From NCBI GenBank assembly GCA_965227515.1, contig CBDDFZ010000001.1, positions 1,673,600 to 1,737,599 of the forward strand: a DNA stretch of 64,000 bases, in the 5' to 3' direction. This stretch comes from Alphaproteobacteria bacterium (GTDB taxonomy: Bacteria > Pseudomonadota > Alphaproteobacteria > CALKHQ01). Shown here piece after piece: positions 43,981 through 61,828 of the stretch (its first letter is position 1; the number at the start of each line of letters is the position of its first letter). The notes under the pieces are model-generated. The model made no database searches. It was not told the origin of the DNA and worked only from the letters and a program-made list of their open reading frames with translations. The translations under genes were made by a program, and so were the position numbers.

Positions 43981-45624
43981 TCAATCCAACGTGCGGGCGC
44001 GCTCGCGCAGGACGAACTTCTGGATCTTGCCGGTCGAGGTCTTCGGCAACGGGCCGAACACCACGTGCCTGGGCACCTTGAATCCAGCCAACCCGGCACG
44101 GCAGTGCGCGATGACGTCGTCGGCGCCCAGCGCGCCCTCCGCCGTCAGGGTCACGAACGCGCACGGCACTTCGCCCCATTTCTCGTCGGGCCGCGCGACC
44201 ACGGCTGCCTCCATGATGGCGGGGTGGCGGTAGAGCACGTCCTCCACCTCCAGGGTCGAGATGTTCTCGCCGCCCGAGATGATGATGTCCTTCAGCCGAT
44301 CCTTCACCTCGACATAGCCGTCGGTGTGCCACACCGCGAGATCGCCGGAGCGGTACCAGCCGCTGCCCATGGCGGCCGCGGTGGCCGTGGGGTTGTCCAG
44401 ATAGCCCTTCATCACGGTGTTGCCCCGGTACATGACCTCGCCGATGGTCTCGCCGTCGCGGGGCACGGCCAGGCCGGTGGCGGGGTCGGCGACGGTCAGG
44501 TCCTCCAGCATCGGATAGGGCACGCCCTGCTGCGCCATGCGCGCGTGACGCGCCTCCGCCGGGCCATCTTTCCATGCCTTCTGTGGCACGCACACCGTGG
44601 TCGGGCCATAGGCTTCGGTGGTGCCATAGAGATGCAGCACCTCGAAGCCGAGCCTCTCCATGGCCGCGATGATCGCCGAGGGCGGGGCCGCACCGCCGGT
44701 GGCGCACAACACGCGGCCGGGCAGAGCGAGCCGCGCCTCTTCCGGCGCGTGAACCAGCAGGTTGAGCACGATGGGCGCCCCGCACATATGGGTGACGCCA
44801 TGGGCGGCGATCTGCCGGAACACGGCCGCCGGCTCCACCTTGCGCAGGCAGACGTGGGTGCCGCCGACCACGGTGACCGCCCAGGTGAAGGTCCAGCCGC
44901 TGCAATGGAACATCGGCAGCGTCCACAGATAGACGCTGTCCTGGTTCAGCCCGAGGGTCAGCGCGTTGCCCATCGCCGCGAGATAGGCGCCGCGATGGCT
45001 GTAGACCACGCCCTTCGGGTCGCCGGTGGTGCCCGAGGTGTAGAGCAGGCAGAGCGAGTCCCACTCGTCCGCCGGGCCGGGCGGCGCGAAGGCCGGGTCG
45101 CCCCCGTCCAGCAGCTCCTCGTAGTCGAGCGCGCCGGCACTTGGCGGCAGCTCGACGTCAGGGTCCGCGATGCCGACGATGGGAATCGGCGTGGTCATGT
45201 CGGCGGTTGCCGCGCGCACGGTATCGGCGAATTCGTCGTCGGCCAGCAACAGCTTGGCCCGCCCGTGGCCCAGGATGAAGCCGACGGTGGCGGCGTCCAG
45301 CCGGGTGTTGATCGGGTTCAGCACCGCGCCCAGCATCGGCACCGCGTAGTGCGCCTCCAGCATCGCCGGCACGTTGGCGGCCATGATCGCGACCGTGTCG
45401 CCACGGCCGATGCCGCGCTTGGCGAGCGCCGAGGCCAGCCGCACGCAGCGCTGGTGGAAGGTGCGGTAGTCGAAGCGCCGGCTGCCGTGGATCACCGCCG
45501 TGCGGTCGCCGAAGAAGCGGGCCGCGCGCACCAGATACGACACCGGCGTCATCGGCACGAAGTTGGCGGCCGAGCGCACCAGCCCGTCGGGTGGCACCTC
45601 GAATGTGGGGTCGGGGGTGGTCAT
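43981..45624 (-). CDS. Acyl-CoA synthetase (AMP-binding, medium-chain; LvaE-like)
   Basis: 'YTSGTTGDPKGV' AMP-binding motif, 'GYGTTE', C-terminal 'SGKIQK'. Start refined to ATG 45624, overlapping the upstream small-protein stop (ATGA). Confidence 0.85.
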   Translation of the reverse strand: MTTPDPTFEVPPDGLVRSAANFVPMTPVSYLVRAARFFGDRTAVIHGSRRFDYRTFHQRCVRLASALAKRGIGRGDTVAIMAANVPAMLEAHYAVPMLGAVLNPINTRLDAATVGFILGHGRAKLLLADDEFADTVRAATADMTTPIPIVGIADPDVELPPSAGALDYEELLDGGDPAFAPPGPADEWDSLCLLYTSGTTGDPKGVVYSHRGAYLAAMGNALTLGLNQDSVYLWTLPMFHCSGWTFTWAVTVVGGTHVCLRKVEPAAVFRQIAAHGVTHMCGAPIVLNLLVHAPEEARLALPGRVLCATGGAAPPSAIIAAMERLGFEVLHLYGTTEAYGPTTVCVPQKAWKDGPAEARHARMAQQGVPYPMLEDLTVADPATGLAVPRDGETIGEVMYRGNTVMKGYLDNPTATAAAMGSGWYRSGDLAVWHTDGYVEVKDRLKDIIISGGENISTLEVEDVLYRHPAIMEAAVVARPDEKWGEVPCAFVTLTAEGALGADDVIAHCRAGLAGFKVPRHVVFGPLPKTSTGKIQKFVLRERARTLD

Positions 45625-45998
45625 GGCTTTGTCGGGCCGCGCCGCGCCAGATAGCGCGGGTTGGTCACCGACAGGGTTGCCTCCAGGTGCGCGCGCAGCG
45701 CCTTGCCGAGGCCGGGCGTCGTGGTTTCGGTGAGCGTGCCGTCGCGCAGCGCTGCCGCCAGCCCGTCGATGTCGGGCGGCGCATCGCTTCCGCAAGCGGC
45801 CAGGAGCGTGCGGTCGGCGGCCGCGGCGTCATGCTGCATCGCCCGCGCGGCGATGCCGAGCGCGTTGCCGATCATCGCGCCGGTGTAGCGCTGGTCCTTG
45901 GCCAGCGCCGGCTGGACGGAGTCCGCGAACGCGGCCCGCGCGCCCTCCAGCAGGTCGATCAGGTCGGTGTTACTGGCCATGACCCCAGGATGCCACAT
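45621..45998 (-). CDS. Small conserved hypothetical protein (DUF6285/LvaB-like partner of APH-ACAD pairs)
   Basis: ~120-aa helical protein between the phosphotransferase and ligase genes with overlapping stop/start on both sides; alternative start 45980. Confidence 0.55.
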   Translation of the reverse strand: MWHPGVMASNTDLIDLLEGARAAFADSVQPALAKDQRYTGAMIGNALGIAARAMQHDAAAADRTLLAACGSDAPPDIDGLAAALRDGTLTETTTPGLGKALRAHLEATLSVTNPRYLARRGPTKP

Positions 45999-51406: not shown

Positions 51407-52150
51407 TCAGGGCAGCGCCGACAGCGCGCGGTCGAGCCAGGCGAGGAAGCCCGTGGGCTTGGCGCCGCCATCCTCGGGCACTGGCGCGGGATCGCTGGCA
51501 TCGCGCGACACCTTCGGGCGCGGCGGCAGGTATTTGTTTGTTGGCCGGCAGCCCATTTCCGGCATCAGGTCATAGCCTTGGCGCTCGCGCACCAGTGACG
51601 AAACCGCCGAGTCCGGGTCGGCAAGGTCGCCGAAGTGCCGCGCGCCGGTCGGGCAGGCATTGACGCAGGCGGGCTGGCGCTGCGCCTCCGGGATCGTCTC
51701 GTTCTCGATGCGGTCGACGCAGAGCGTACATTTCTTCATCACCCCGCCCAGCGTGTCCATCTCGCGCGCGCCATAGGGGCAGGCCCAGGCACACAGCCCG
51801 CAACCGATGCACAAATCCTCCTCCACCAGCACGATGCCGTCGTCGGCGCGCCTGTAAGAGGCGCCGGTCGGGCACACGGTCACGCACGGCGCGTTGTCGC
51901 AATGCAGGCAGGAGCGCGGGAAATAGACCGTGCGGGCATGCGGGCCCTCGCCAACCTCGAACCCGTGCACCCGGTTCAGCCAGGCGCCGGCGACATCCTT
52001 GCCGTAGGCGTTCTCGTCGGACAGCGGCGCGACATGGCCGCCGGTGTTCCACTCCTTGCAACTGGTCACACAGGCCTGGCAGCCGACGCAGGTGTCGAGG
52101 TCGATGACCAGGCCCAGCTTGCGCGGTGGGGAGGGCGGCAGCGAGGTCAC
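51407..52150 (-). CDS. 4Fe-4S ferredoxin-type subunit of a DMSO-reductase-family enzyme (DmsB-like; candidate SoeB)
   Basis: Four Cys clusters ('CVGCQACVTSC', 'CLHCDNAPCVTVCP', 'CIGCGLCAWACP', 'CTLCVDR...CVNACP'); start overlaps the catalytic-subunit stop. Confidence 0.8.
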   Translation of the reverse strand: MTSLPPSPPRKLGLVIDLDTCVGCQACVTSCKEWNTGGHVAPLSDENAYGKDVAGAWLNRVHGFEVGEGPHARTVYFPRSCLHCDNAPCVTVCPTGASYRRADDGIVLVEEDLCIGCGLCAWACPYGAREMDTLGGVMKKCTLCVDRIENETIPEAQRQPACVNACPTGARHFGDLADPDSAVSSLVRERQGYDLMPEMGCRPTNKYLPPRPKVSRDASDPAPVPEDGGAKPTGFLAWLDRALSALP

Positions 52151-55050
52151 TTGCCGCCTCCCAGGACTGGGACATCCAGGTAACGCGCGGTCTGGGCGTG
52201 GCGGCTGAAGTCGGCGCCATAGCGCACGTCCTCAGGCGACGGCGGCAGGCCGGGCGGCAGCGGCAGGGCGTCGAAGCGCGGCTCGGTCGCCTCGGCACCC
52301 TCCGCCTTCTCGATCGAGACCCGCAGGTCGAACCATGCCGCCTGGCCGGTGATCGGGTCGGCGACCGGGCGCCGGTGGCCGTAGCCGTCGGCCGGGAGCC
52401 GCTCGTCGATCAGGTGGTTGAGCAGGAAGCCCTTCGTTGCCTCCGGCGCGTCCGGCTTCAGGTTCCAGGCCCCGGCTCGCTTGCCGATGGCGTTCCAGGT
52501 CCACACCGTCTGCTCGTTGACGCCGGCCATCCGCCTGACCTCAACCTTTATGCGGCCGTTGCGGCTGGAAAGCCACGCCCAGTCGCCGTCCTGCAGGTCG
52601 TGCCGGTCGGCCAGTGCGTGGGAGATGTAGAGCACGTTGCGCGCCATGATCTGGCGCAGCCACGCGTTCTGCGATCCCCAGGAGTGGTACATCGCCATCG
52701 GCCGCTGGGTGATGGCGTGGAGCGGATAGGCGGCCTCGTCGGTGGCCTGGTCCTCGTGCGGCGGGTGCCAGAACGGCAGCGGATCGAAATGGCGGGCGAT
52801 CCAGTCGCGCTGGTCATCCGGTGGCTGCACCGGGCCGTGGCCCTCGGCGGCGCGGCGGAAGCGCTGCAGCGGCTCGGCATAGAGCTGCAGGATCACCGGA
52901 TCGGGCGTGGCGACGAAGCCCATGCGCTCTGCATATTTCAGGTAGGCGGCGTTGCCGTGCTTGTAGAAGCGCTGGTCGTCGGCCAGCCGGTCGTGCCAGA
53001 AGCAGCCGTTCTCGATGTAGCGGTCGAGCTGGTCCGGATTGGGCGCGCCCTCGCCGTGCTGGGTGCCGCCTTCGCCGCGCCATCCGGCCAGGCTGCCGAT
53101 GCCGGGCCGGCGCTCGTGATTGACCAGATAGTCCGGGTAGCCGCCCGGATAGCGCGGGCCGCCGTCCGGCTCGGTCATGCCGGGCAGGCCTAGCCGCGCG
53201 CCCAGGTCCAGCAGCACGGACTGGAACGGCCGCACGTCGCGGTCGGGCTCGACGACCGGCTGCCGGATCGCGTCGGCGGGGCCGTCGGCCTCCGAAATCG
53301 GCCGGTCGAGCAGCGAGACGCAGTCCCATCGCTCCAGATAGGTGGTGTCCGGCAGCACGATGTCGGCGTAGGCCACCGTCTCCGAATAGTAGGCGTCGGA
53401 ATAGACGATGTGCGGGATCTTGTAGTCGCCGGTGGCCTCGTCCTTCGCCGCCAGCCGCTGCATGGTCTCGGCCGTGTTCATGGCCGAGTTCCAGGCCATG
53501 TTGGCCATGTACATGAACAGGGTGTCGATGGGGTAGGGGTCGCCGTCCACCGCGTTGCGGATCACCAGGTGCATCATGCCGTGGGCGGCAATCGGCGCCT
53601 CCCACGAATAGGCGCCGTCGATGCGCATCGGCCGGCCGTCGGCGTCGAGCAGCAGGTCCTCCGGCGCTTGGGGGAAGCCCAGCGGCGGACCCGGCAATGG
53701 CTGGCCGGCGCGGACCTGGTCGGGCTTGCCGGCGGGCAGCGGGCCGGGCGGGGCCGGGCGCGGGAACGGCGCCTTGTAGCGGAAGCCGCCGGGCGCATCG
53801 ATGCTGCCGAGCAGGACCTGCAACAAATGCAGCGCGCGGCAGGTGTGGAAACCGTTTGAGTGGGCGGAGATGCCGCGCATGGCGTGCATGGAGACCGGGC
53901 GGCCGACCATGCGCGAGTGGTGCTCGCCGGTCCAGTCGGTCCACGGCTGGTCGATGGCGATCTCATGGTCGAAGGCGGCCGCGATCAGCTCGTCGCCGAT
54001 GCGCCGGATGGTGGCTGCCGGCACGCCGCACTGGTCCGCCACCGCCTCCGGCGCATAGGCCGGGTCGAGATAGCGCTCGGCCAGCAGCTCCAGCACGGGC
54101 CGGGCCTGGCGGCCGTCCTCCAGCGTCACCGCGCCATGCAGGGCGGCCGCCATCGGCGCCTCGCGATGGGGCAGGGCGCGCTGGCGCAGGCGATGCCAGA
54201 CCTGCGGCTGGCCCTCGCCGTCGCGCGCGAACAGGCCATGGTCGGCGGCCTCGGGGTCCTCCACTACCAGCCAGCCGGCATTGGTGAACCTGAGCAGGTA
54301 GTCCAGGTCGATGCGGTGCTTCGACAGCACGTGATGGATCAGCGCCATCACGAACAGGCCGTCGCGGCCGGGCCGGATGCCGATCCATTCGTCGGCGATG
54401 GCGGAATAGCCGGTGCGCACCGGGTTGACCGAGACCACCTTGGCACCGCGCGCCTTCAGCTTGCCGAGCCCCATTTTGATCGGGTTGGAGTCGTGGTCCT
54501 CGGCAACCCCGAACATCAGCAGGTACTGGGTGCGCTCCCAGTCCGGCTCGCCGAACTCCCAGAACGAGCCGCCGATGGTGTAGATGCCAGCGGCCGCCAT
54601 GTTGACCGAGCAGAACCCGCCATGGGCGGCGTAGTTCGGGGTGCCGAACTGGCTCGCCCACCAGCCGGTCAGCGCCTGGCTCTGGTCACGCCCGGTGAAG
54701 AACGCGAGCTTCTTCGGGTCGTCATCGCGTATCGCGCCCAGCCAGCCGGCGACGGTGTCCAGCGCCTCGTCCCACTCGATTTCCTGGAACTCGCCCTTGC
54801 CGCGCTCGCCGACCCGCTTCAGCGGCTTGGTCAGCCGCGCCGGCGAGTTGTGCTGCATGATGCCGGCCGAGCCCTTGGCGCACAGTACGCCCCGGTTCAC
54901 CGGGTGGTCGGGGTTGCCCTCAATGTAGCGGACGCGCCCGTCCTTCAGGTGCACTTTGATGCCGCAGCGGCAGGCGCACATATAGCAGGTGCTGGTCTTG
55001 ACCTCGTCACCGATCGGCTGGTTGACCGGGATGGGGCGCCTACTCGTCAT
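52147..55050 (-). CDS. Molybdopterin (bis-MGD) oxidoreductase catalytic subunit lacking a Tat signal (candidate sulfite dehydrogenase SoeA)
   Basis: 967 aa; N-terminal FeS motif 'CYMCACRCG' with no twin-arginine leader, so cytoplasmic orientation; co-located with B (FeS) and C (NrfD-like) subunits as in SoeABC. Confidence 0.7.
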   Translation of the reverse strand: MTSRRPIPVNQPIGDEVKTSTCYMCACRCGIKVHLKDGRVRYIEGNPDHPVNRGVLCAKGSAGIMQHNSPARLTKPLKRVGERGKGEFQEIEWDEALDTVAGWLGAIRDDDPKKLAFFTGRDQSQALTGWWASQFGTPNYAAHGGFCSVNMAAAGIYTIGGSFWEFGEPDWERTQYLLMFGVAEDHDSNPIKMGLGKLKARGAKVVSVNPVRTGYSAIADEWIGIRPGRDGLFVMALIHHVLSKHRIDLDYLLRFTNAGWLVVEDPEAADHGLFARDGEGQPQVWHRLRQRALPHREAPMAAALHGAVTLEDGRQARPVLELLAERYLDPAYAPEAVADQCGVPAATIRRIGDELIAAAFDHEIAIDQPWTDWTGEHHSRMVGRPVSMHAMRGISAHSNGFHTCRALHLLQVLLGSIDAPGGFRYKAPFPRPAPPGPLPAGKPDQVRAGQPLPGPPLGFPQAPEDLLLDADGRPMRIDGAYSWEAPIAAHGMMHLVIRNAVDGDPYPIDTLFMYMANMAWNSAMNTAETMQRLAAKDEATGDYKIPHIVYSDAYYSETVAYADIVLPDTTYLERWDCVSLLDRPISEADGPADAIRQPVVEPDRDVRPFQSVLLDLGARLGLPGMTEPDGGPRYPGGYPDYLVNHERRPGIGSLAGWRGEGGTQHGEGAPNPDQLDRYIENGCFWHDRLADDQRFYKHGNAAYLKYAERMGFVATPDPVILQLYAEPLQRFRRAAEGHGPVQPPDDQRDWIARHFDPLPFWHPPHEDQATDEAAYPLHAITQRPMAMYHSWGSQNAWLRQIMARNVLYISHALADRHDLQDGDWAWLSSRNGRIKVEVRRMAGVNEQTVWTWNAIGKRAGAWNLKPDAPEATKGFLLNHLIDERLPADGYGHRRPVADPITGQAAWFDLRVSIEKAEGAEATEPRFDALPLPPGLPPSPEDVRYGADFSRHAQTARYLDVPVLGGGK

Positions 55051-55059
55051 CGGGAGAGG

Positions 55060-55386
55060 TCACGCGCGACCGGTCTTCTCGCCGTTGGCGAACAGGCGGT
55101 TGCCCTGTTCGTCGATGATCTGCTTGCCCTTCGAGATGGCGAAGCTCTCCGCCTCGTCCTTGGACGAGAAGGTGTCTGCGCGCTGGTACTCGCGTTCCAG
55201 GTTTCCGTCATCGCCGCCGGTCTTGACGATGACCCCGGCAAGCCGCCACTGGCTGCCTGCCTTGATCGGGGCGGGGTAGATCGTCAGCCCGGCGTGCTCC
55301 ACCGGATCGCCGCGCCCGGCCGGGCCGCCGTCACCGGATTTCTCGCCACCGCCGCCGCCGAACAGTTTGGATAGGATGCCTGCCAT
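55060..55386 (-). CDS. Small HlyU-family protein (alphaproteobacterial 'transcriptional activator HlyU' family)
   Basis: 108 aa with 'LSKLFGGGGGE', 'QWRL', 'RADTFSSKDEAESFAISKGKQIIDEQGNRLF' pattern recalled for this family; 9 nt upstream of the catalytic-subunit ATG on the same strand. Confidence 0.5.
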   Translation of the reverse strand: MAGILSKLFGGGGGEKSGDGGPAGRGDPVEHAGLTIYPAPIKAGSQWRLAGVIVKTGGDDGNLEREYQRADTFSSKDEAESFAISKGKQIIDEQGNRLFANGEKTGRA

Positions 55387-55556
55387 GCACGCAGTCTAGC
55401 CCGTGCGGCCGGCGCGCGCCAAGACCTGCTTGGAACCCTGGATCGCACCAACCATGATTTGGCCATTTCCGTGCGGCAAAGTGGTTGCTGGCGTGGGCAG
55501 TGTGGCCCATCGTTCTGCCCCATCGTCCGGCCCAAAATGACATAGGCGAGTTTCGC

Positions 55557-56063
55557 ATGGGTACTTTCATCAAGTTCGGTGTCTTCGCAGCCATCGCGTT
55601 CGGCGTGCCGATCGGGCTGGTCGTGTGGGCCATCTATGGCGACGGGCAGTTCGCGCTGTATGCCGGGCTCGGCGGCGGCATCGCGTTCGGCGTCATCATG
55701 GTGGTTGTCATGGCGGCGGTCAGCGCGCGCACCGCGAAGAACCGCCCCGCGCTCGACGACGGCGAGGTGCTGATCAAGGAGGACGCCGCCAACCATTTCG
55801 TCGGCATGGTTGCGGTCGGCGGCTGGCTGTTCCTGACCAACCGCCGGCTGCACTTCAAGTCGCACGCGGCCAACACCCGCAACCACGAGACATCCTATCC
55901 ACTGGCGGAGATTACGGGCCTGGCGGCGACGCGGACCATGGGCCTTGTCCCCAACAGCTTCGTGGCGACCATGGCCTCCGGCGCGGACGAGAAATTCGTG
56001 GTGCGGGGCCGCGCCAAGTGGGTCGCCGCCGTGGAAAACGCGCGGTCAGCCGCTGCCGGCTAG
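55557..56063 (+). CDS. Membrane-anchored bacterial PH (GRAM/YokE-like) domain protein
   Basis: Two N-terminal TM helices then a bPH-like domain ('FLTNRRLHFKSH'). Confidence 0.55.
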   Translation: MGTFIKFGVFAAIAFGVPIGLVVWAIYGDGQFALYAGLGGGIAFGVIMVVVMAAVSARTAKNRPALDDGEVLIKEDAANHFVGMVAVGGWLFLTNRRLHFKSHAANTRNHETSYPLAEITGLAATRTMGLVPNSFVATMASGADEKFVVRGRAKWVAAVENARSAAAG

Positions 56064-56435
56064 GACGCGCTCGGGCTGCGGCATGGGGTTGCGGCGGTCC
56101 TCCGTCGCCTGGGCGGCGAAATCGCGCAATTCCTCGATGGAGAAGTGCGGTTGGAACACGCGCTGGCCGTCGAACCGGAAATGCTCGCGCAGCCGATGCT
56201 CGTGGCTGGTCTTCAGGGCCAGGAACATGGTCTGCACCACCTCGCTGTTGGTGGCGTGGCGGCTGATGTACCACTTGCGGCCGGCCTGCTCGGCCGGGGC
56301 GCCGGTGTGGATGTCGGGCTCGTCGTAGCGGGCCTGGATGAAGTGGCCGTCGCCCATCGGCTCGACCCGCCAACGGTATTCGGGGTAGTCGACGCGCCGG
56401 GTCAGATCGACCAGGTGCTCAAGTCTGTGGTCCAT
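56046..56435 (-). CDS. Hypothetical protein
   Basis: 130-aa ORF from ATG 56435 with native-like codon usage; no family recognised. Confidence 0.4.
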   Translation of the reverse strand: MDHRLEHLVDLTRRVDYPEYRWRVEPMGDGHFIQARYDEPDIHTGAPAEQAGRKWYISRHATNSEVVQTMFLALKTSHEHRLREHFRFDGQRVFQPHFSIEELRDFAAQATEDRRNPMPQPERVLAGSG

Positions 56436-56525
56436 ATGCGTGTGCCTTCTGCGTTGCCGCTCTTCACACATAGGCACACACGGTCGTGGCAACAATTGGG
56501 TCGGGTTTCGGTGAGACGTCCAACC

Positions 56526-57464
56526 TCACACCGGGATCAGCGTGATGCCGTCGTTGGTCGCATGGTACTCCGGCAGGATGAACACCATCACGTCGCTGCT
56601 GTTGTAGACGTATGTGTAGGACTCGGTGCCGTTGCCGCCGGTGATGAAATAGCTGCCCTGGATGGAGTCGCCATCCAGGAACGCGTAGTTTTCGATGATA
56701 TCGGGCACGCCGTCGGTGCCGGCGATGAAATAGTCAGCGCCTGCGCCGCCCACCAGCATGTCGGTGCCGTTGCCGCCGTCATAGGTGTCGTCGCCGTCGC
56801 CGCCGTGCAGGTAGTCGGTGCCGTCGCCGCCGAACATCATGTCATTGCCGCCGCCGCCCCACAGGCGATCGTCGCCGGCGTCGCCGTACAGAATGTCGTT
56901 ACCCACCGCGTCGTAGCCGTCGCCGAACAGGCGGTCGTTGGCCTCGCCGCCGTGGATCGTGTCGTGGCCGTACATGCCGTAGATCCAGTCCTCGCCGCCG
57001 CCGCCGTCGATGGTGTCGTTCCAATAGCCGCGGGTGTAGGCCAGTTCATGGTGGTCGCCGTTGATCCAGTCGTGGTCGTCGCCGCCGAATATCCGGTCGG
57101 CGCCGGCGCCGCCATAGAGCTTGTCCTCGCCATCGCCGCCGTCGATCAGGTCGTTCCCGGCGCCACCGAACACCGTGTCGTCGCCGTTTCCGCCATAGAG
57201 CGAGTCGTTGCCGGCCATGCCGTCGATGGTGTCGTGCCCGTCCTCGCCATGGAGCGTGTCGTCGTCCTGCAGGAACGGGTTGGGCGTGCCGTTGCCGATG
57301 ATGATGTCGTTGAACGGCCCGCCATGGATTTCATCGTCCCCGGCGCCGCCGATGAACGTGCCGCCGATCTGGTCGTATTGCGGCTCGGGCGGCGCCTCGC
57401 GCGTATCGGGCGTCCACCGGAGATCGGTCTGGAGGGAACTGGGCGGGGTGCTGCTGCGGGCCAT
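56526..57464 (-). CDS. RTX calcium-binding repeat protein (hemolysin-type GGxGxD nonapeptide repeats)
   Basis: More than 15 tandem 'GGAGNDxLxGG'-type repeats; no signal peptide, consistent with a T1SS substrate. No T1SS genes in the window. Confidence 0.8.
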   Translation of the reverse strand: MARSSTPPSSLQTDLRWTPDTREAPPEPQYDQIGGTFIGGAGDDEIHGGPFNDIIIGNGTPNPFLQDDDTLHGEDGHDTIDGMAGNDSLYGGNGDDTVFGGAGNDLIDGGDGEDKLYGGAGADRIFGGDDHDWINGDHHELAYTRGYWNDTIDGGGGEDWIYGMYGHDTIHGGEANDRLFGDGYDAVGNDILYGDAGDDRLWGGGGNDMMFGGDGTDYLHGGDGDDTYDGGNGTDMLVGGAGADYFIAGTDGVPDIIENYAFLDGDSIQGSYFITGGNGTESYTYVYNSSDVMVFILPEYHATNDGITLIPV

Positions 57465-57763
57465 GATATCGCTCCGGAGTCGTGCGTTGCCGGTAGGTCG
57501 CAGCCGGCGTGGGCCCGGTTCATTGCCTCTTGCGGGCGCGCACGCGTGCCTTCGATGTTGGACACATCGCGCTCTGGGACCATATTGTCGGATGCGATTA
57601 GCGGCGATTCCGCCGTTCGCGGGCGCTTGACCGTGAAAATCGGGCCCTCGGCCGTTAAGATTCAGGCTCGACCCGACGCTGGTCTGTTTGTATCAAATGG
57701 GGATGTGTCCGGCAGGTAGGCCGGATGGCATCATCAAGCCCGGTGGGGAAGAAAAGGGGAGTC

Positions 57764-57925
57764 ATGCCGGCTCTGAAAAACCAGCCACCTCGTGGATTGA
57801 CCGGTGCGCCTCTTGTCAGCTTCGCTGCGCCGGCATGTGCGGCTCTTGGGTCCGCGCATGTGCCTGCATGCCATCGCCCATACCATCGCCACGTGGGTTT
57901 GCGAGGCGCCTGGATAGACGCATGA
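57764..57925 (+). CDS. 53-codon upstream ORF translationally coupled (ATGA) to the E1-KASIII fusion gene
   Basis: Strong RBS AAGGGGAG immediately upstream of ATG 57764; stop TGA 57923..57925 overlaps the downstream ATG 57922..57924; Cys/His-containing peptide. Confidence 0.35.
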   Translation: MPALKNQPPRGLTGAPLVSFAAPACAALGSAHVPACHRPYHRHVGLRGAWIDA

Positions 57926-60900
57926 ACAAGCAGGTCACCACCAAGCGCGGCCGCCTGAACATCGCCGAAGGCAGCGCCCCCACACAGCCCGACGCGCAGG
58001 AGCTTTCGCACCTGTACCGCGCGATGCTGACGGCGCGCGAGATCGACCGGGTCGAGGATGTGGCGACCCGGCGCGGCGAGGCGTTCTTCCACGTCTCCGG
58101 CAAGGGGCACGAGGGCTCGGCGGCGCTGGCGCTGCACCTGACCAACGACGACTGGCTGCACTGCCACTATCGTGACAAGGCGCTGATGGTGGCACGCGGC
58201 ATCACCGCGCGCGCGTTCTTCGACGGCTTCTATTGCAAGGACGCCTCGCATTCGCGCGGGCGCCAGATGTCGGCCCATATGTGCGATGCCTCGCTGCGCG
58301 TTGCCAGCGTGTCCGGCCCGGTCGGCAATGGCGCGTTGCATGCTGTGGGCATGGCGCTGGCCGGCAAGGACATGGAGACCCGGCCCATCGTGCTGTTCTC
58401 CTGCGGCGACGGCACCACGCAGGAGGGCGAGTTCCTGGAGTCGTGCGCCGAGGCGGCGCGCGCGGAAGCCCCGGTGCTGTTCTTTGTCGAGGACAATGGC
58501 TGGGCGATCTCCACGCCGACCGCCGGCAAGACGTTCTATGCCCTGCATGCGCAGCGGCCGGACGCCTTCCACGGTATCCCGATCCACCGCATCGACGGGC
58601 GCGACGCGATCCAGGCGTGGCGCGAGCTCGGGCCCATCGTTGCGCGCATGCGGCGCACCCGCCAGCCCGCGATCGTCGTGTTCCAGGTCGCGCGCATCGC
58701 CAACCACACCAACGCCGACGACCAGTCGATCTACCGCGACGCGGCCGACATCAAGCTGGCCGAGGAAACCTGCGACCCGATCCCGATCCTGGAAGACCAG
58801 CTCCTGGACATGGGGTGGAGTGCCGCCGATCTGGCGGCGGCCAAGGACGAGATCGCGCGCCAGGTGGCGGAGGCCGATGAGGCGGCGGCCTTCGGGCCCG
58901 ACCCCGAGCCGATGCTGACGGCCGACGTGGCGCCGTCGGCTGCGGTCGCGGAGGCGTTGCAGCCCGGTCGTGCGCGCAAGCCCGCCGCGGCGCCGGCGCC
59001 CGCCGCGGTGCCGAACACGCCGCAGACCATGGGCGAGGCGATCCGTGCCGTGCTGCGCGGCCGGCTGGCCGACGACCCGCGCGTCTATCTGTGGGGCGAG
59101 GACATCGAGGACCCGAAGGGCGACGTATTCGGCGTAACCAAGGGCCTCAGCACCCAGTTCCCGAAGCGCGTGGTCAACGCGCCGCTGACCGAGTCCACCA
59201 TCGTCGGCGTCGCCATCGGCCGGGCGATGGCCGGCGAGCGCCCGGTGGCGTTCCTGCAGTTCGCCGATTTCCTGCCACTTGCCTACAACCAGATCGTCAG
59301 CGAGCTGGGCAGCATGGCGTGGCGCACCGACGGCGCCTTGACCGCGCCTGTTATCATCATGGTGCCGTGCGGCGGCTATCGCCCCGGTCTGGGGCCGTTC
59401 CACGCCAGTTCGTTCGAATCGCTGATGACCCACACGCCGGGCATCGACGTGGTGATGCCGTCGACAGCGGAGGATGCGGCCGGCCTGCTGAACGCCGCCT
59501 TCGAGTCAACCCGGCCGACGGTGTTCTTCTATCCCAAGAGCTGCCTCAACGACCCGCGCGGCGCGATGACCGGCGATGCCGGCCAGGTCAGGCTGACGCC
59601 CGGATCGGCGCGCAAGGTGCTGTCGGGCCGCGACCTGACAATGGTCGGCTGGGGCAACACCGTGCGGCTGTGCGAGCAGGCTGCCGAGGCGCTGGAGAAA
59701 GCCGGTGTCGAGGCCGAGGTGTTGGACCTGCGCAGCCTGGGGCCCTGGGACAAGCGGGCGGTGCTGTCGTCGGCGGAGACCAGCGGCCGGCTGCTGGTGG
59801 TGCACGAGGACAACCACACCAACGGCTTCGGCGCCGAGATTCTGGCGACGGTCGGCGAGCAGTGCCGCACCCATGTGGCCATGCGCCGGGTGACCCGGCC
59901 CGACACCTATGTGCCGTGCAATTTCGCCAACCAGATCGAGGTGTTGCCGTCGTTCAAGCGGGTGCTGGAAACGGCGGCCGACATGCTGGACATCGACGTC
60001 GAATGGACGCCGCCGCCGGCCGCCGAGGAAGGCATCGTGCTGGTCGAGGCCATCGGGTCCGGCCCGACCGACGAGACCGTCGACGTGGTCGAGCTGATGG
60101 TCGAGGTCGGCCAGACTGTCGAGCGCGGCGAGGAGATCGCGGCCCTTGAGGCGATCAAGAGCGTGTTCGAGCTGACCTCGCCCGCCTCCGGCGTGATTGA
60201 GGAGATCGTCGTCGGGATCGGCGAGACGGTGCCGGTCGGTGCGCCGCTGATGAAGATCCGCACCGACGACACCACCCAGCGCGCCAAGCCCTTGACCCAC
60301 GAGGCGCCCGGCACGCCCACCCTGACCCGGCGCGCCAAGCCGGCGGCACCGGCTGTTGCCGGCAGGGGCGAGGGCGCCGCGGCCCAGCCGGCCGGCACGC
60401 TCAGGGTCGGGCTGTCGCAGGTCGCCACCGTCACCGGCAGCCGGGTGGTGCCGAACGAGGAACTGGTACAGGGCCGCACCGACGACACCTACCGCGATGC
60501 GGAGAAGCTGACCGGCATCCGCGCCCGCCATTGGGCGGCGGAGGGCGAGACGGTGCTGTCGCTCGGCGTGCGCGCGGTGCGTGCGGCGCTGGAGGCGAAC
60601 GGGCTCACCGCCGACGACCTCGACCTCGTGATCTGCAGCACGACCACGCCAGATCAGGTGACGCCCTCCGTGGCCTATCGCATCCTGCGCGATGTTGCCG
60701 GCGAGCGCGGCAACCCGGCGGTGGCCGCCTATGACATCAATGCGGCATGCTCGGGCTATCTCTACGCGCTGCAGGCCGCGCACGACTTCCTGCAGAACCA
60801 GCCGCAAGGCCGTGTGCTGGTGGTGACGGCCGAGGTGCTGTCGCGGCTGCTGGACCGCGACGACCCGTCGACCGTGCTGGTGTTCGGCGACGCGGCGTCG

Positions 60901-61353
60901 GCCACCGTGGTCTATGGCGACGCGCATTTCGATGGCGCTGCCGCGCGCCTGTTCCGCCCTGATATCTCCGGAAAGAGCGACGACCGCAACGCGCTGACCG
61001 TGCCGGTGCCAGGCCAGGGCTATGTGCGGATGGACGGCCAGCGGGTGTTCCGCGAGGCGGTGCGCGCCATGGTCGGCAGCCTGAACCGGGTCTGCGCCGG
61101 CCAGGGGCTGGGGCTCGGCGACCTGGACATGGTGGTGCCGCACCAGGCCAACCAGCGCATCATCGACGCCATCGCGCAGCGCACCGGCGCCAACGCCTAT
61201 TCCAACATCAAGCATTTCGGCAACACGTCGTCGACCAGCATTCCGTTGTGCCTGGCCGAGGTGCTGCCCGACGCGCCGGCCGGCCAGCGGCTGGGCCTGT
61301 GCGCCTTCGGCGGCGGCTATACCTACGCGGCCGCGGTGCTGGAAACCGTCTAG
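57922..61353 (+). CDS. Single-polypeptide fusion: TPP-dependent 2-oxoacid dehydrogenase E1 alpha + E1 beta + lipoyl-type domain + 3-oxoacyl-ACP synthase III (FabH-like)
   Basis: One uninterrupted frame. E1-alpha TPP motif 'GDGTTQEG...VEDNGWAIS'; E1-beta transketolase-like Pyr and C-terminal domains; lipoyl/biotinyl-like barrel with Lys in 'LEAIKSVFELTSPASGVIEEI'. KASIII follows, with Cys 'AACSGY', His 'VPHQANQRI', Asn 'GNTSS'. Ala/Pro-rich linkers lie between modules. Confidence 0.8.
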   Translation: MNKQVTTKRGRLNIAEGSAPTQPDAQELSHLYRAMLTAREIDRVEDVATRRGEAFFHVSGKGHEGSAALALHLTNDDWLHCHYRDKALMVARGITARAFFDGFYCKDASHSRGRQMSAHMCDASLRVASVSGPVGNGALHAVGMALAGKDMETRPIVLFSCGDGTTQEGEFLESCAEAARAEAPVLFFVEDNGWAISTPTAGKTFYALHAQRPDAFHGIPIHRIDGRDAIQAWRELGPIVARMRRTRQPAIVVFQVARIANHTNADDQSIYRDAADIKLAEETCDPIPILEDQLLDMGWSAADLAAAKDEIARQVAEADEAAAFGPDPEPMLTADVAPSAAVAEALQPGRARKPAAAPAPAAVPNTPQTMGEAIRAVLRGRLADDPRVYLWGEDIEDPKGDVFGVTKGLSTQFPKRVVNAPLTESTIVGVAIGRAMAGERPVAFLQFADFLPLAYNQIVSELGSMAWRTDGALTAPVIIMVPCGGYRPGLGPFHASSFESLMTHTPGIDVVMPSTAEDAAGLLNAAFESTRPTVFFYPKSCLNDPRGAMTGDAGQVRLTPGSARKVLSGRDLTMVGWGNTVRLCEQAAEALEKAGVEAEVLDLRSLGPWDKRAVLSSAETSGRLLVVHEDNHTNGFGAEILATVGEQCRTHVAMRRVTRPDTYVPCNFANQIEVLPSFKRVLETAADMLDIDVEWTPPPAAEEGIVLVEAIGSGPTDETVDVVELMVEVGQTVERGEEIAALEAIKSVFELTSPASGVIEEIVVGIGETVPVGAPLMKIRTDDTTQRAKPLTHEAPGTPTLTRRAKPAAPAVAGRGEGAAAQPAGTLRVGLSQVATVTGSRVVPNEELVQGRTDDTYRDAEKLTGIRARHWAAEGETVLSLGVRAVRAALEANGLTADDLDLVICSTTTPDQVTPSVAYRILRDVAGERGNPAVAAYDINAACSGYLYALQAAHDFLQNQPQGRVLVVTAEVLSRLLDRDDPSTVLVFGDAASATVVYGDAHFDGAAARLFRPDISGKSDDRNALTVPVPGQGYVRMDGQRVFREAVRAMVGSLNRVCAGQGLGLGDLDMVVPHQANQRIIDAIAQRTGANAYSNIKHFGNTSSTSIPLCLAEVLPDAPAGQRLGLCAFGGGYTYAAAVLETV

Positions 61354-61372: not shown

Positions 61373-61828
61373 ATGACGGTCCGACGCCGGTCTCTTGCAC
61401 TCACCGCTCTGATCGTCGGCGTGCTCGGCGGTCCGTCGTTGAGCGCGGCCGGCGACATTCAAGGGTCCTACTGCGGGCACATTTTCTCGGCCGGCGCCAA
61501 CGAGGCCGGCTACACCCGTTTCGTCACCGACAAGGGCGTGATCACGGGGGCCTATTCGTTTGTCGACAGCGTCCAGGGTGGCGTCATCGAGCGCGGCAGC
61601 CTTACCGATTGCGCGCTCGATCCCGACGATCCATCCATGATTGCGTGCACGTGGGCCGATGCCTTCGGCGAGGGGCGGTTCGAGGCGCAGTTTTCCCCTG
61701 ATGGCGCACGTTTTCGCGGCCATTGGTCCCCGGAAGCCGAACCGGCGCTGATCTTTCCCTGGACGGGCGAGCGCCTTGGTGCGGACGTGTCCGAGGAAAG
61801 CTGCATCGGCTCGGACGCCTATTCCTGA
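61373..61828 (+). CDS. Secreted hypothetical protein (6 Cys)
   Basis: Signal peptide 'LALTALIVGVLGGPSLSAAG'; 20 nt downstream of the fusion gene stop. Confidence 0.5.
   Translation: MTVRRRSLALTALIVGVLGGPSLSAAGDIQGSYCGHIFSAGANEAGYTRFVTDKGVITGAYSFVDSVQGGVIERGSLTDCALDPDDPSMIACTWADAFGEGRFEAQFSPDGARFRGHWSPEAEPALIFPWTGERLGADVSEESCIGSDAYS

What the first reader, a model, noticed from the sequence alone, without database searches (positions are those of the whole stretch)
57764..61353. E1alpha-E1beta-lipoyl-KASIII megafusion: a possible CoA-independent 2-oxoacid-to-ketoacyl-ACP priming enzyme with a coupled leader ORF
One uninterrupted 1143-codon frame encodes, in order, a TPP-dependent 2-oxoacid dehydrogenase E1 alpha (GDG...N TPP motif intact) and an E1 beta. 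A lipoyl-type swinging-arm domain follows, then a complete FabH-type KAS III with its Cys-His-Asn triad. There is no E2 acyltransferase core anywhere nearby.

In canonical complexes the acyl-dihydrolipoyl arm delivers the acyl group to the E2 catalytic domain to make acyl-CoA, and FabH then re-captures that acyl-CoA. Here the arm is tethered directly to the condensing enzyme. This suggests the acyl group goes from the 2-oxoacid to the KAS III cysteine and then to malonyl-ACP without a CoA intermediate. A free E3/Lpd would be needed to re-oxidise the arm.

The lipoyl-lysine context (EAIK rather than DKA) is non-canonical. The gene itself has a weak RBS, but a 53-codon uORF with a very strong AAGGGGAG RBS terminates in ATGA over its start codon. 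That implies obligate translational coupling or leader-peptide control. Flanking genes (RTX protein, secreted protein, convergent SDR) give no operon context.
Basis: partly seen in the sequence, partly recalled or inferred. Interest (0 to 1): 0.88.

Follow-up and report, generated by a model that had tools for sequence, protein, structure and literature searches.

The report
Ketoacid dehydrogenase fused to fatty-acid starter enzyme
One real 1143-residue gene joins the first enzyme of a 2-oxoacid dehydrogenase complex and its lipoyl swinging arm to the enzyme that starts fatty-acid chains; it belongs to a large, uncharacterised family that probably starts chains directly from 2-oxoacids without coenzyme A.

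Summary
ORF 57922-61353 (+) encodes, in one frame, E1alpha, E1beta, a lipoyl domain and a complete FabH-type KAS III. Catalytic residues are intact throughout.

It is not an assembly artefact. More than 120 full-length homologues exist, and at least 62 species genomes from eight or more phyla carry the same architecture. None of 63 examined has an E2 acyltransferase core or an E3-binding domain.

- All 63 fused proteins kept the Cys-His-Asn triad, the pantetheine tunnel and the ACP-docking arginine. All lost both residues that clamp the adenine of CoA in E. coli FabH (Trp32, Arg151).
- A large sister family in Spirochaetes and Opitutales is lipoyl–E3-binding domain–KAS III. This is an E2 whose catalytic core has been replaced by a ketosynthase.
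- One relative continues into KR and ACP domains.

E1alpha is closest to branched-chain E1, so branched 2-oxoacids are the likelier substrate; this is unproven.

The "coupled leader ORF" is not supported: its GC3 is 0.54 against about 0.9 for real genes, its Shine-Dalgarno spacing is 2 nt, and it is not conserved.

Nine literature searches found no description. No biochemistry exists, so the mechanism is inferred.

The parts
57922..61353 (+). Complete gene: E1alpha-E1beta-lipoyl-KAS III fusion, 1143 aa plus stop
   Evidence: ORF list and sequence. Identical to database protein P0001. GC3 is 0.82-0.98 in every 50-codon block. The AlphaFold2 model has mean pLDDT 88.6 and pTM 0.81.
58015..58908 (+). 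E1alpha module (residues 32-329). It holds the TPP motif G162-D163-G164...N192 (58405-58497) and the active-site His262 (58705-58707) within ...NHTNADDQSIYR.
   Evidence: Pfam E1_dh, 134 bits. In the cross-phylum alignment N192 and H262 are invariant; G162 and G164 are nearly invariant. H262 aligns with the second His of human BCKD E1alpha ...GHHSTSDD.... Bit scores are 131 and 125 to T. thermophilus and human BCKD E1alpha, against 65-69 to PDH E1alpha.
59023..59934 (+). E1beta module: pyrimidine-binding domain (residues 368-542) and C-terminal domain (561-671). It holds Glu424 (59191-59193) and His494 (59401-59403).
   Evidence: Pfam Transket_pyr 90 bits and Transketolase_C 96 bits. E424 and H494 are invariant in 63 sequences. 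They align with Glu60 and His129 of G. stearothermophilus E1beta chain 3duf_B. The best solved relative is T. thermophilus BCKD E1beta 1um9_B, 198 bits.
60073..60258 (+). Lipoyl (swinging-arm) domain, residues 718-779, with the acceptor Lys746 (60157-60159) in LEAIKSVFE
   Evidence: Pfam Biotin_lipoyl 50 bits, found in 63 of 63 members. K746 is invariant. The family-wide consensus is EADKA. The domain is 38-42% identical to the lipoyl domains of lipoyl-PSBD-KAS III proteins.
60280..60393 (+). Linker between lipoyl and KAS III. A conserved motif R.KP.T.E.PGTP.L.RR (residues 787-805) is followed by a disordered Ala/Pro/Gly stretch (808-824). No PSBD is present.
   Evidence: Motif conserved in alignments A1 and A2. 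The model shows a strand at 798-803 (the 791-800 block averages pLDDT about 85) and pLDDT below 50 at 808-824. No E3_binding hit in 63 of 63 members.
60406..61344 (+). FabH-type KAS III module (residues 829-1141). Catalytic residues are Cys943 (60748-60750), His1074 (61141-61143) and Asn1101 (61222-61224). The ACP-docking Arg is Arg1079 (61156-61158). Asp859 and Pro982 occupy the positions of E. coli Trp32 and Arg151. Thr914 occupies the position of Phe87.
   Evidence: NCBIfam NF006829, 248.3 bits against a cut-off of 249. Pfam ACP_syn_III and ACP_syn_III_C. Residue-by-residue alignment to E. coli FabH 1hn9. Site table over 63 fused members. Residues checked in the window sequence.
57764..57925 (+). 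It is present but judged a chance ORF in GC-rich intergenic DNA, and is not a functional part of the system.
   Evidence: GC3 is 0.54 against 0.85-0.92 for real genes. An ATG-ORF of at least 53 codons ending in ATGA arises in 6% of shuffles. The SD-to-ATG spacing is 2 nt. The nearest relatives have no homologue. No Rfam hit.

Best explanation
The gene encodes a self-contained variant of a 2-oxoacid dehydrogenase complex. In it, the E2 acyltransferase core has been replaced by a FabH-type ketosynthase.

Proposed cycle (all steps inferred):
1. The fused E1alpha-E1beta module, which must dimerise to form the usual alpha2beta2 active sites, decarboxylates a 2-oxoacid on TPP.
2. It reductively acylates lipoyl-Lys746.
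3. The acyl-dihydrolipoyl arm enters the pantetheine tunnel of the KAS III module and passes the acyl group to Cys943 by thioester exchange. It takes the place normally occupied by acyl-CoA.
4. Malonyl-ACP docks at Arg1079 and is decarboxylated by His1074 and Asn1101. It condenses with the acyl-cysteine to give 3-ketoacyl-ACP.
5. The dihydrolipoyl arm is re-oxidised in trans by a housekeeping dihydrolipoamide dehydrogenase (E3).

Net reaction: 2-oxoacid + malonyl-ACP + NAD+ gives 3-ketoacyl-ACP + 2 CO2 + NADH, with no acyl-CoA intermediate.

The likelier substrates are branched-chain or other aliphatic 2-oxoacids, which would make iso/anteiso primers. Pyruvate is not excluded.

Shown here: architecture, residue conservation, distribution, loss of the CoA-adenine clamp, and the E2-like and PKS-like relatives. 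Inferred: every chemical step, the substrate, the E3 partner, and whether the product feeds bulk fatty acids or a specialised lipid.
For: - Six domains lie in one chain, all above Pfam cut-offs.
- The architecture recurs in more than 120 full-length database proteins.
- It also recurs in 62 species genomes: Planctomycetota, Spirochaetota, Verrucomicrobiota, Kiritimatiellota, Lentisphaerota, Sumerlaeota, Actinomycetota, and Alpha-, Beta- and Gammaproteobacteria.
- About 30 full-length representatives of 50%-identity clusters appear among the top 150 hits to a junction-spanning query.
- These residues are invariant across phyla: N192, H262, E424, H494, K746, C943, H1074, N1101.
- His494 aligns with the E1beta histidine 129 of chain 3duf_B. 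From memory of the literature, this histidine is implicated in reductive acylation of lipoamide.
- None of 63 members has an E2 core or PSBD.
- Against E. coli FabH, all 63 fused proteins keep C112, H244, N274, G209, A246 and N247, with M207 in 57, F213 in 49 (Tyr in 13) and I250 in 62; R249 is Arg in 60 of 63.
- None keeps Trp32 (Asp in 47) or Arg151 (Phe, Pro, Gln or Ala). Six stand-alone FabH genes taken from the fetched loci, several of them beside plsX and/or fabD, keep both.
- The sister family is lipoyl-PSBD-KAS III, exactly the E2 domain order. Textbook PSBD sequences are visible and Pfam E3_binding hits are recorded for most listed members. It occurs in Spirochaeta lutea, Salinispira pacifica, Ereboglobus, Rariglobus and Pelagicoccus.
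- In spirochaetes that gene sits directly after a fused E1alpha-beta gene.
- P0250 extends the same core with KR and ACP domains. This implies a carrier-bound beta-keto product.
- The high-confidence AlphaFold2 model places flexible tethers on both sides of the lipoyl domain.
Against: - There is no biochemical or genetic datum for any member.
- The control set for the CoA-clamp argument is small: six genomic FabH proteins, E. coli FabH and three PDB sequences.
- The spirochaete split group keeps Arg151 and has Tyr for Trp32, so loss of the clamp is not universal among lipoyl-tethered KAS III proteins.
- The fused family has no PSBD, so how E3 reaches the arm is unexplained.
- The KAS III score lies just under NCBIfam's FabH-subfamily cut-off, 248.3 against 249.
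- Model coordinates could not be inspected, so reach of the arm to Cys943 is not verified.
- No ACP, E3, lipoate ligase or fab gene lies nearby in the window or recurs next to the gene in other genomes.
Confidence: 0.6

Rival explanations
1. The KAS III module acts only as a substitute E2. It takes the acyl group from the lipoyl arm onto Cys943 and passes it to CoA or holo-ACP as a transacylase, without condensing it with malonyl-ACP. The protein would then be a minimal acyl-CoA- or acyl-ACP-forming dehydrogenase.
For: - The KAS III module sits exactly where the E2 catalytic domain sits in lipoyl-PSBD-X proteins.
- FabH enzymes have a known acyl-CoA:ACP transacylase side activity, and some KAS III-like proteins are acyltransferases (own knowledge, not tested here).
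Against: - His1074 and Asn1101 serve malonyl decarboxylation rather than acyl transfer, yet both are invariant in 63 of 63 fused and 115 of 115 split proteins.
- The residues that bind the CoA nucleotide are lost, which argues against CoA as acceptor.
- A relative carries KR and ACP directly after the KAS III, which makes sense only if a beta-keto product is formed.
Confidence: 0.12
2. The fusion only co-localises two ordinary steps. The E1-lipoyl part works with a separate E2 and E3 encoded elsewhere to make acyl-CoA, and the KAS III module then uses that acyl-CoA in the normal way.
For: - The host is a Rhodospirillales-like alphaproteobacterium and presumably has ordinary E2 and E3 genes elsewhere (general knowledge).
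- No direct evidence for lipoyl-to-Cys transfer exists.
Against: - In ordinary complexes the lipoyl domain belongs to the E2 chain. Here and in the split family it is always attached to KAS III, never to an E2 core.
- Trp32 and Arg151 are absent in 63 of 63 members.
- No E2 gene recurs next to the gene in 80 loci.
Confidence: 0.15
3. The chemistry is as in the best explanation, but the role is not bulk fatty-acid initiation. The enzyme would prime a specialised lipid or polyketide-like product, and in this alphaproteobacterium it is an accessory, horizontally acquired gene.
For: - The window protein is closer to planctomycete versions (57%) than to Rhizobium or Devosia versions (46-49%), although the host is Rhodospirillales-like.
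- The closest relatives (67%) have a FAAL-ACP didomain gene just downstream.
- P0250 is a KS-KR-ACP megasynthase.
- The gene is never in a fab operon.
Against: - The FAAL-ACP neighbour is absent from the window and from the other 80 loci.
- The gene mostly stands alone amid housekeeping genes.
- NCBI's pipeline names many members simply beta-ketoacyl-ACP synthase 3.
- Arg1079 fits docking of a free ACP, though this does not show it is the housekeeping ACP.
Confidence: 0.3
4. The long ORF is an artefact: a frameshift or assembly error merging separate E1alpha, E1beta and FabH genes, or a decaying pseudogene.
For: None found.
Against: - The coding signal is uniform across both junctions.
- The same single-chain architecture appears in hundreds of independent assemblies.
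- All catalytic residues are invariant.
- The structure model is confident.
Confidence: 0.01

Closest known systems
Branched-chain 2-oxoacid dehydrogenase complex plus FabH as used for iso/anteiso fatty-acid priming in Bacillus, Staphylococcus and Listeria (established knowledge)
   Same: The overall task is the same: 2-oxoacid to acyl primer to 3-ketoacyl-ACP. The E1 is of the same heterotetrameric type; E1alpha scores 131 and 125 bits to T. thermophilus and human BCKD E1alpha. A lipoyl arm and a FabH-type condensing enzyme are also shared.
   Different: There the arm delivers the acyl group to an E2 core that makes free acyl-CoA, which a separate FabH recaptures. Here there is no E2 core or PSBD. 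All parts are one chain, and the FabH module has lost the CoA-adenine clamp.
Canonical E2 (dihydrolipoamide acyltransferase): lipoyl domain, PSBD, catalytic core
   Same: The split relatives have exactly this order, lipoyl then PSBD then catalytic domain, with textbook PSBD sequence. The window protein keeps the lipoyl domain and a linker in the same position.
   Different: The catalytic domain is a thiolase-fold ketosynthase instead of the CAT-like acyltransferase core. That core is also the oligomeric scaffold of the complex. The window type has additionally lost the PSBD and gained E1 in cis.
FabH / KAS III (E. coli 1hn9, Aquifex 2ebd, Neisseria 4ryb)
   Same: Identity is 34-40% over the whole domain. 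The Cys-His-Asn triad, the pantetheine-tunnel residues and the ACP-docking Arg249 equivalent are conserved.
   Different: It is fused behind a lipoyl domain. Trp32 becomes Asp and Arg151 becomes Pro in the window (Phe is commonest across the family), and Phe87 becomes Thr. From memory, Phe87 is also Thr in M. tuberculosis FabH, where the primer pocket is larger.
QncN/QncL/QncM-type systems of tetrahydroisoquinoline antibiotic pathways: E1-like and E2-like proteins that move a C2 unit via lipoyl onto an ACP (recalled from the literature, not checked here)
   Same: This is a precedent for a 2-oxoacid-dehydrogenase-like E1 plus lipoyl arm feeding a carrier-protein pathway rather than the CoA pool.
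   Different: Those systems keep an E2-type acyltransferase and transfer to ACP without C-C bond formation. Here a ketosynthase receives the acyl group.
Glycine cleavage H-protein with L-protein (established knowledge)
   Same: A lipoyl carrier with no PSBD is re-oxidised by free dihydrolipoamide dehydrogenase. This is a model for how the PSBD-less window protein could use E3 in trans. Pfam GCV_H gives weak hits on the lipoyl domain in 43 of 63 members.
   Different: The chemistry on the arm is different (aminomethyl rather than acyl), and the carrier is a free-standing protein.

Membership tests
Heterotetramer-type TPP-dependent 2-oxoacid dehydrogenase E1 (alpha plus beta) | TPP/Mg-binding motif GDG-(X25-30)-N in the alpha part | tested here: met
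   G162-D163-G164...N192 is present. N192 is invariant and G162 and G164 are at least 90% conserved across 63 cross-phylum sequences.
Heterotetramer-type TPP-dependent 2-oxoacid dehydrogenase E1 (alpha plus beta) | Catalytic residues: alpha His (human BCKD ...GHHS...), beta Glu that activates TPP, and beta His used in reductive acylation | tested here: met
   H262 aligns with the second His of human BCKD E1alpha GHHSTSDD. E424 and H494 align with Glu60 and His129 of chain 3duf_B. All three are invariant.
Heterotetramer-type TPP-dependent 2-oxoacid dehydrogenase E1 (alpha plus beta) | Separate alpha and beta polypeptides | tested here: not met
   Alpha and beta are one chain, joined by a linker of about 38 residues that is disordered at 354-358. 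The split relatives also have a 659-aa fused alpha-beta protein.
Classical 2-oxoacid dehydrogenase complex (E1-E2-E3) | Lipoyl domain with acceptor lysine | tested here: met
   Biotin_lipoyl is found in 63 of 63 members. K746 is invariant; the family consensus is EADKA and the window reads EAIKS. Actual lipoylation is not testable here.
Classical 2-oxoacid dehydrogenase complex (E1-E2-E3) | E2 catalytic acyltransferase core (Pfam 2-oxoacid_dh) | tested here: not met
   It is absent from the protein, from the C-terminal 500 residues of 63 of 63 members, and from the neighbours at 52-63 kb.
Classical 2-oxoacid dehydrogenase complex (E1-E2-E3) | Peripheral subunit-binding domain that recruits E3 or E1 | tested here: not met
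   No E3_binding hit in 63 of 63 fused members. It is present in the split lipoyl-PSBD-KAS III relatives.
Classical 2-oxoacid dehydrogenase complex (E1-E2-E3) | Dihydrolipoamide dehydrogenase (E3) partner | not testable with these tools
   No E3 was found among the 20 window ORFs scanned or recurrently near homologues. The rest of the genome could not be searched.
FabH / KAS III (beta-ketoacyl-ACP synthase III) | Cys-His-Asn catalytic triad | tested here: met
   C943, H1074 and N1101 align with E. coli C112, H244 and N274. They are kept in 63 of 63 members.
FabH / KAS III (beta-ketoacyl-ACP synthase III) | ACP-docking arginine (E. coli Arg249) | tested here: met
   R1079 is present. The position is Arg in 60 of 63 members, Lys in 2 and His in 1.
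FabH / KAS III (beta-ketoacyl-ACP synthase III) | Acyl-CoA primer site: adenine clamped between Trp32 and Arg151 (E. coli numbering) | tested here: not met
   The window has Asp859 and Pro982. None of 63 members has Trp and none has Arg at these positions. Six canonical FabH proteins from fetched loci keep both.
FabH / KAS III (beta-ketoacyl-ACP synthase III) | Score above the curated family cut-off | tested here: inconclusive
   NF006829 scores 248.3 bits against a cut-off of 249. TIGR00747 scores 214 against 292. Both Pfam domains are above their cut-offs.
Translationally coupled leader peptide / regulatory uORF | Conservation of the uORF, or of its position, in relatives | tested here: not met
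   The nearest relatives L081 and L082 have no homologous upstream peptide. L082 has no overlapping upstream ORF called at all.
Translationally coupled leader peptide / regulatory uORF | Signs of translation: coding-like codon-position bias and a well-spaced Shine-Dalgarno sequence | tested here: not met
   GC3 is 0.54 against 0.85-0.92 for genes in this window. AAGGGGAG ends 2 nt before the ATG. Stop/start overlap (ATGA) is present, but ORFs like this occur in 6% of shuffles.

The most novel reading that the evidence does not exclude
Lipoyl-tethered ketosynthases, both the fused E1alpha-beta-lipoyl-KAS III type and the split lipoyl-PSBD-KAS III type, would be the housekeeping chain-initiating enzymes of whole phyla: Planctomycetota, Verrucomicrobiota/Kiritimatiellota and many Spirochaetota. 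In these bacteria membrane fatty-acid synthesis would be primed directly from 2-oxoacids by a 2-oxoacid dehydrogenase complex built around a ketosynthase instead of an E2 core. No acyl-CoA primer pool would be involved. This would be a third, previously unrecognised mode of fatty-acid initiation, and a new class of lipoate-dependent enzyme that forms a C-C bond.
Probability: 0.3. Interest if true: 0.92.

Novelty: new variant of a known kind. Interest (0 to 1): 0.8.

Why it matters
If the proposed handover is real, lipoate-dependent complexes are not confined to making acyl-CoA. A ketosynthase can replace the E2 core, so a 2-oxoacid is turned directly into the first 3-ketoacyl-ACP of a fatty acid.

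That would matter in several ways:
- It would explain how branched or unusual primers are selected in large, poorly studied phyla (PVC bacteria, spirochaetes).
- It would remove the assumed need for an acyl-CoA primer pool in those organisms.
- It would give synthetic biology a compact one-protein module for feeding amino-acid-derived 2-oxoacids into fatty-acid or polyketide synthesis.
- It would correct many database names, which currently read "transketolase", "2-oxoisovalerate dehydrogenase E1" or "beta-ketoacyl-ACP synthase 3".

The hypothesis is directly testable with one recombinant protein.

Tried and rejected
- **Frameshift or assembly artefact:** rejected.
- **Leader peptide or translational coupling:** rejected. 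Composition, SD spacing and shuffles; no conservation; no Rfam family at 57300-58100; leader fold z = -1.45. The only promoter-like site is about 335 nt upstream, and no terminator-like site was found.
- **Operon or gene-cluster context:** ORFs from 80 homologous loci plus the window were clustered. No gene family recurs beside the fusion across phyla, only within-lineage synteny. Window neighbours are unrelated. Neighbours of split variant L067 and of P0250 are also uninformative.
- **Biotin rather than lipoate on Lys746:** considered and rejected. The domain follows an E1, the family consensus is EADKA, and relatives have PSBDs.
- **Single origin of lipoyl-tethered KAS III:** unresolved. The window's KAS III is equally distant (32-40% identity) from canonical FabH and from both split groups.
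- **Substrate assignment from homology:** only a lean towards BCKD-type E1alpha. E1beta is equidistant from BCKD and PDH.
- **Exact look-up of the window protein's own contig:** failed.
- **Literature:** nine full-text searches and one review read found no description of the architecture. Subscription-only papers are not covered.

Full report
**1. Observation**

The window contains an ATG-started ORF at 57922-61353 (+), 1143 codons plus stop. Pfam finds six domains in order, all above gathering cut-offs:
- E1_dh, residues 32-329
- Transket_pyr, 368-542
- Transketolase_C, 561-671
- Biotin_lipoyl, 718-779
- ACP_syn_III, 937-1000
- ACP_syn_III_C, 1061-1141

NCBIfam's FabH-subfamily model covers residues 829-1141 at 248.3 bits, against a cut-off of 249. 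The translation is identical to a database protein from a 4.07 Mb contig.

**2. A real and widespread family, not an artefact**

- A word-indexed search of 5.8 billion proteins returned more than 120 full-length homologues (1094-1214 aa, 54-68% identity) with the same six domains.
- The names given to them are all automatic: transketolase, 2-oxoisovalerate dehydrogenase E1 component, thiamine pyrophosphate-dependent enzyme, beta-ketoacyl-ACP synthase 3.
- Sixty-two of the fetched loci, 61 of them from that species-genome scan, carry full-length fusions. They come from Planctomycetota, Spirochaetota, Verrucomicrobiota, Kiritimatiellales/Pontiella, Lentisphaeria, Sumerlaeota, Actinomycetota, Rhizobium, Devosia, Neisseriaceae, Francisellaceae/Cysteiniphilum and Methylococcaceae.
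- A filter-free HMMER search of 1.84 billion 50%-identity representatives used a query spanning lipoyl, linker and the KAS III N-terminus. It found about 30 full-length (1100-1210 aa) representatives among the top 150.

**3. Catalytic equipment**

In a 63-sequence cross-phylum alignment (39-58% identity to the window protein) these residues are invariant:
- N192 of the TPP motif
- H262, which aligns with the second His of human BCKD E1alpha GHHSTSDD
- E424 and H494, which align with Glu60 and His129 of G. stearothermophilus E1beta chain 3duf_B
- the lipoyl lysine K746
- KAS III C943, H1074 and N1101, which align with E. coli FabH C112, H244 and N274

The lipoyl-lysine context EAIKS is particular to this clade. 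The majority consensus of the cross-phylum alignment is EADKA.

An AlphaFold2 model built from 120 homologues is confident, with pLDDT 88.6 and pTM 0.81. Disorder is confined to residues 1-15, the alpha/beta linker (354-358) and residues 808-824 between lipoyl and KAS III. The lipoyl domain therefore sits between flexible tethers.

**4. What is missing, and what relatives show**

None of the 63 fused proteins has an E2 acyltransferase core or an E3-binding domain (PSBD). Two kinds of relative are informative.

*Split family.*
- In spirochaete locus L067 the system is two genes. The first is a 659-aa fused E1alpha-beta. Thirteen nucleotides later comes a 511-aa protein with a lipoyl domain, a Pfam-detected E3_binding domain and a complete KAS III.
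- This split type is itself a large family. It occurs in cultured Spirochaeta lutea, Salinispira pacifica, Ereboglobus luteus, Rariglobus hedericola and Pelagicoccus species.
- These proteins have near-canonical lipoyl motifs (IETEKS, LESDKS) and textbook PSBD sequence, for example WTPRAIKLVQEAGL...PTGPGGRV.
- The order lipoyl-PSBD-catalytic domain is exactly that of an E2, with a ketosynthase in place of the acyltransferase core.
- In S. lutea the same two-gene operon follows a pyruvate phosphate dikinase gene.

*Extended relative.*
- P0250 (1942 aa) continues the E1alpha-beta-lipoyl-KAS III core with a KR domain and an ACP bearing a GIDSM motif.
- This makes sense only if the KAS III produces a carrier-bound beta-keto thioester.

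**5. Has the KAS III given up acyl-CoA?**

I aligned 63 fused KAS III modules with E. coli FabH and with six canonical FabH genes from fetched loci, several of them beside plsX and/or fabD.
- The fused proteins keep the triad in 63 of 63.
- They largely keep the pantetheine-tunnel residues: G209, A246 and N247 in 63 of 63, M207 in 57, F213 in 49 (Tyr in 13) and I250 in 62.
- They keep the ACP-docking Arg249 as Arg in 60 of 63.
- None keeps Trp32 (Asp in 47 of 63). None keeps Arg151 (Phe, Pro, Gln or Ala).
- All six canonical controls keep both residues.

From established FabH-CoA structures (own knowledge), these two residues sandwich the CoA adenine. In the window they are Asp859 and Pro982.

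The split groups also lack Trp32: 0 of 115 have it, with Tyr or Glu instead. The spirochaete group keeps Arg151, while the Opitutales group has His.

Phe87, the primer-size gate in E. coli FabH, is Thr or Ser in 60 of 63 fused proteins.

The pattern is what one expects if the acyl donor is no longer a nucleotide-bearing CoA thioester while the tunnel and the ACP site are still used. The control set is small, and this remains an inference.

**6. Proposed mechanism**

All chemical steps are inferred.
1. The fused E1 dimerises to give the usual alpha2beta2-type sites, and KAS III is likewise an obligate dimer. The E1 decarboxylates a 2-oxoacid on TPP.
2. It reductively acylates lipoyl-K746.
3. 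The arm swings into the KAS III tunnel and acylates Cys943.
4. Malonyl-ACP docks at R1079 and condenses, giving 3-ketoacyl-ACP.
5. Free E3 re-oxidises the arm, much as L-protein serves the PSBD-less H-protein of the glycine cleavage system.

How E3 finds the arm in the PSBD-less fused type is unexplained. A conserved motif after the lipoyl domain, R.KP.T.E.PGTP.L.RR at residues 787-805, forms an ordered strand in the model. It is a candidate docking element.

**7. Substrate**

- E1alpha is much closer to BCKD-type E1alpha than to PDH E1alpha. It scores 131 bits to T. thermophilus and 125 to human BCKD, against 65-69 bits to PDH.
- E1beta does not discriminate: 198 bits to T. thermophilus BCKD, 182 to P. 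putida BCKD, 178 to G. stearothermophilus PDH.
- Together with Thr at the Phe87 position, I lean to branched-chain or other aliphatic 2-oxoacids, roughly 55:35 over pyruvate.
- This is weak. The PPDK neighbour in S. lutea hints the other way.

**8. Context and host**

- Clustering all ORFs from 80 homologous loci plus the window found no gene family that accompanies the fusion across phyla. It is a stand-alone gene, for example in Lignipirellula cremea.
- In the window it lies between a divergent RTX gene and a 151-aa signal-peptide-like ORF followed by a convergent SDR. HlyU, a GRAM-like protein and a molybdopterin oxidoreductase lie upstream.
- Further ORFs encode an acyl-CoA synthetase, an acyl-CoA dehydrogenase, MgtE, DegP, RarA and others.
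- RarA is about 80% identical to Azospirillum, Oceanibaculum and Stella proteins, so the host is a Rhodospirillales-like alphaproteobacterium.
- The fusion is nevertheless closer to planctomycete versions (57%) than to Rhizobium or Devosia versions (46-49%). That indicates horizontal spread.
- Its GC3 of 0.915 is host-like, so the transfer is not recent.
- The nearest relatives (67%) have a FAAL-ACP didomain gene just downstream. The window has none.

**9. The leader ORF**

The ORF 57764-57925 exists and overlaps the start codon as ATGA, but nothing supports function.
- GC3 is 0.54, against 0.85-0.92 for genes in this window.
- The AAGGGGAG ends 2 nt from its ATG.
- Six per cent of shuffled intergenic sequences give an equal or longer ATG-ORF ending the same way.
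- The nearest relatives have no homologous peptide.
- No Rfam family matches.
- The putative leader is not unusually structured, z = -1.45.

I treat it as a chance ORF. The gene's own Shine-Dalgarno sequence is indeed weak: GGA, 7 nt upstream.

**10. Novelty**

- No solved structure belongs to this family. The best PDB matches are separate E1 subunits and FabH proteins at no more than 198 bits.
- Nine full-text literature searches and one review found no description of an E1-lipoyl-KAS III or lipoyl-PSBD-KAS III protein.
- Subscription-only papers are not covered, so prior description cannot be excluded.

I classify it as a new variant of a known kind: a 2-oxoacid dehydrogenase complex whose E2 core is a ketosynthase. 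The window's gene is one member of a large uncharacterised family.

**11. Verdict**

- The central interpretation is favoured but unproven (confidence 0.6).
- The leader-ORF interpretation is rejected.
- The finding is of high interest, because a single recombinant-protein experiment would test a new mode of fatty-acid chain initiation.

Noticed in passing
P0250 (1942 aa; locus L085:10001-15829): A relative extends the E1alpha-E1beta-lipoyl-KAS III core with a KR domain (1337-1518), an ACP (PP-binding 1625-1683, GIDSM motif) and an unassigned C-terminal region of about 230 aa. This makes a PKS-like megasynthase. Its neighbours are not a biosynthetic cluster.
   Followed up: partly
L067:9971-13498; L084:5986-9605; P0123-P0242: There is a large sister family of about 490-545-aa proteins with the order lipoyl domain, PSBD (E3_binding), KAS III. 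It occurs in Spirochaetes and Opitutales, including cultured species. In spirochaetes the gene lies directly downstream of a 659-aa fused E1alpha-beta gene. All members are named simply beta-ketoacyl-ACP synthase 3.
   Followed up: partly
L081:6076-8244 and L082:9077-11209: The closest relatives of the window protein (67% identity) have a gene for a fatty-acyl-AMP-ligase-like AMP-binding domain fused to an ACP. It lies 140-520 nt downstream on the same strand. The window has no counterpart, only an ordinary acyl-CoA synthetase at 43981-45795 (-).
   Followed up: partly
L084:2930-5596: In Spirochaeta lutea a pyruvate phosphate dikinase gene lies directly upstream, on the same strand, of the E1alpha-beta and lipoyl-PSBD-KAS III genes. 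This is a weak hint that pyruvate could be the substrate there. The adjacency is not conserved in L067.
   Followed up: no
L083:16350-17533: In Ereboglobus luteus a lipoyl-synthase-like radical SAM gene and plsY lie 7-8 kb downstream of the stand-alone lipoyl-PSBD-KAS III gene. This may be coincidence.
   Followed up: no
window 61373-61828 (+): A 151-aa ORF with a signal-peptide-like N-terminus starts 20 nt after the fusion's stop codon. It has no Pfam match and a GC3 of 0.77, lower than its neighbours (0.85-0.92). It does not recur next to the fusion in other genomes.
   Followed up: partly
window 57922-61353 versus L025, L027, L030, L022, L066: The host is Rhodospirillales-like (RarA about 80% identical to Azospirillum and Oceanibaculum). 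Yet its fusion protein is closer to planctomycete versions (57%) than to other alphaproteobacterial versions (46-49%). This indicates horizontal spread of the gene among phyla.
   Followed up: partly
window 60280-60336 (residues 787-805): A conserved short motif R.KP.T.E.PGTP.L.RR lies between the lipoyl domain and KAS III, and is partly ordered in the AlphaFold2 model (strand at 798-803). Its function is unknown. It could be a docking element that replaces the missing PSBD.
   Followed up: no
window 52147-57464: The upstream neighbourhood holds a 967-aa molybdopterin oxidoreductase, a HlyU-family regulator, a GRAM-like membrane protein, an unassigned 149-aa ORF and a 312-aa RTX calcium-binding repeat protein. 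None is related to the fusion.
   Followed up: partly
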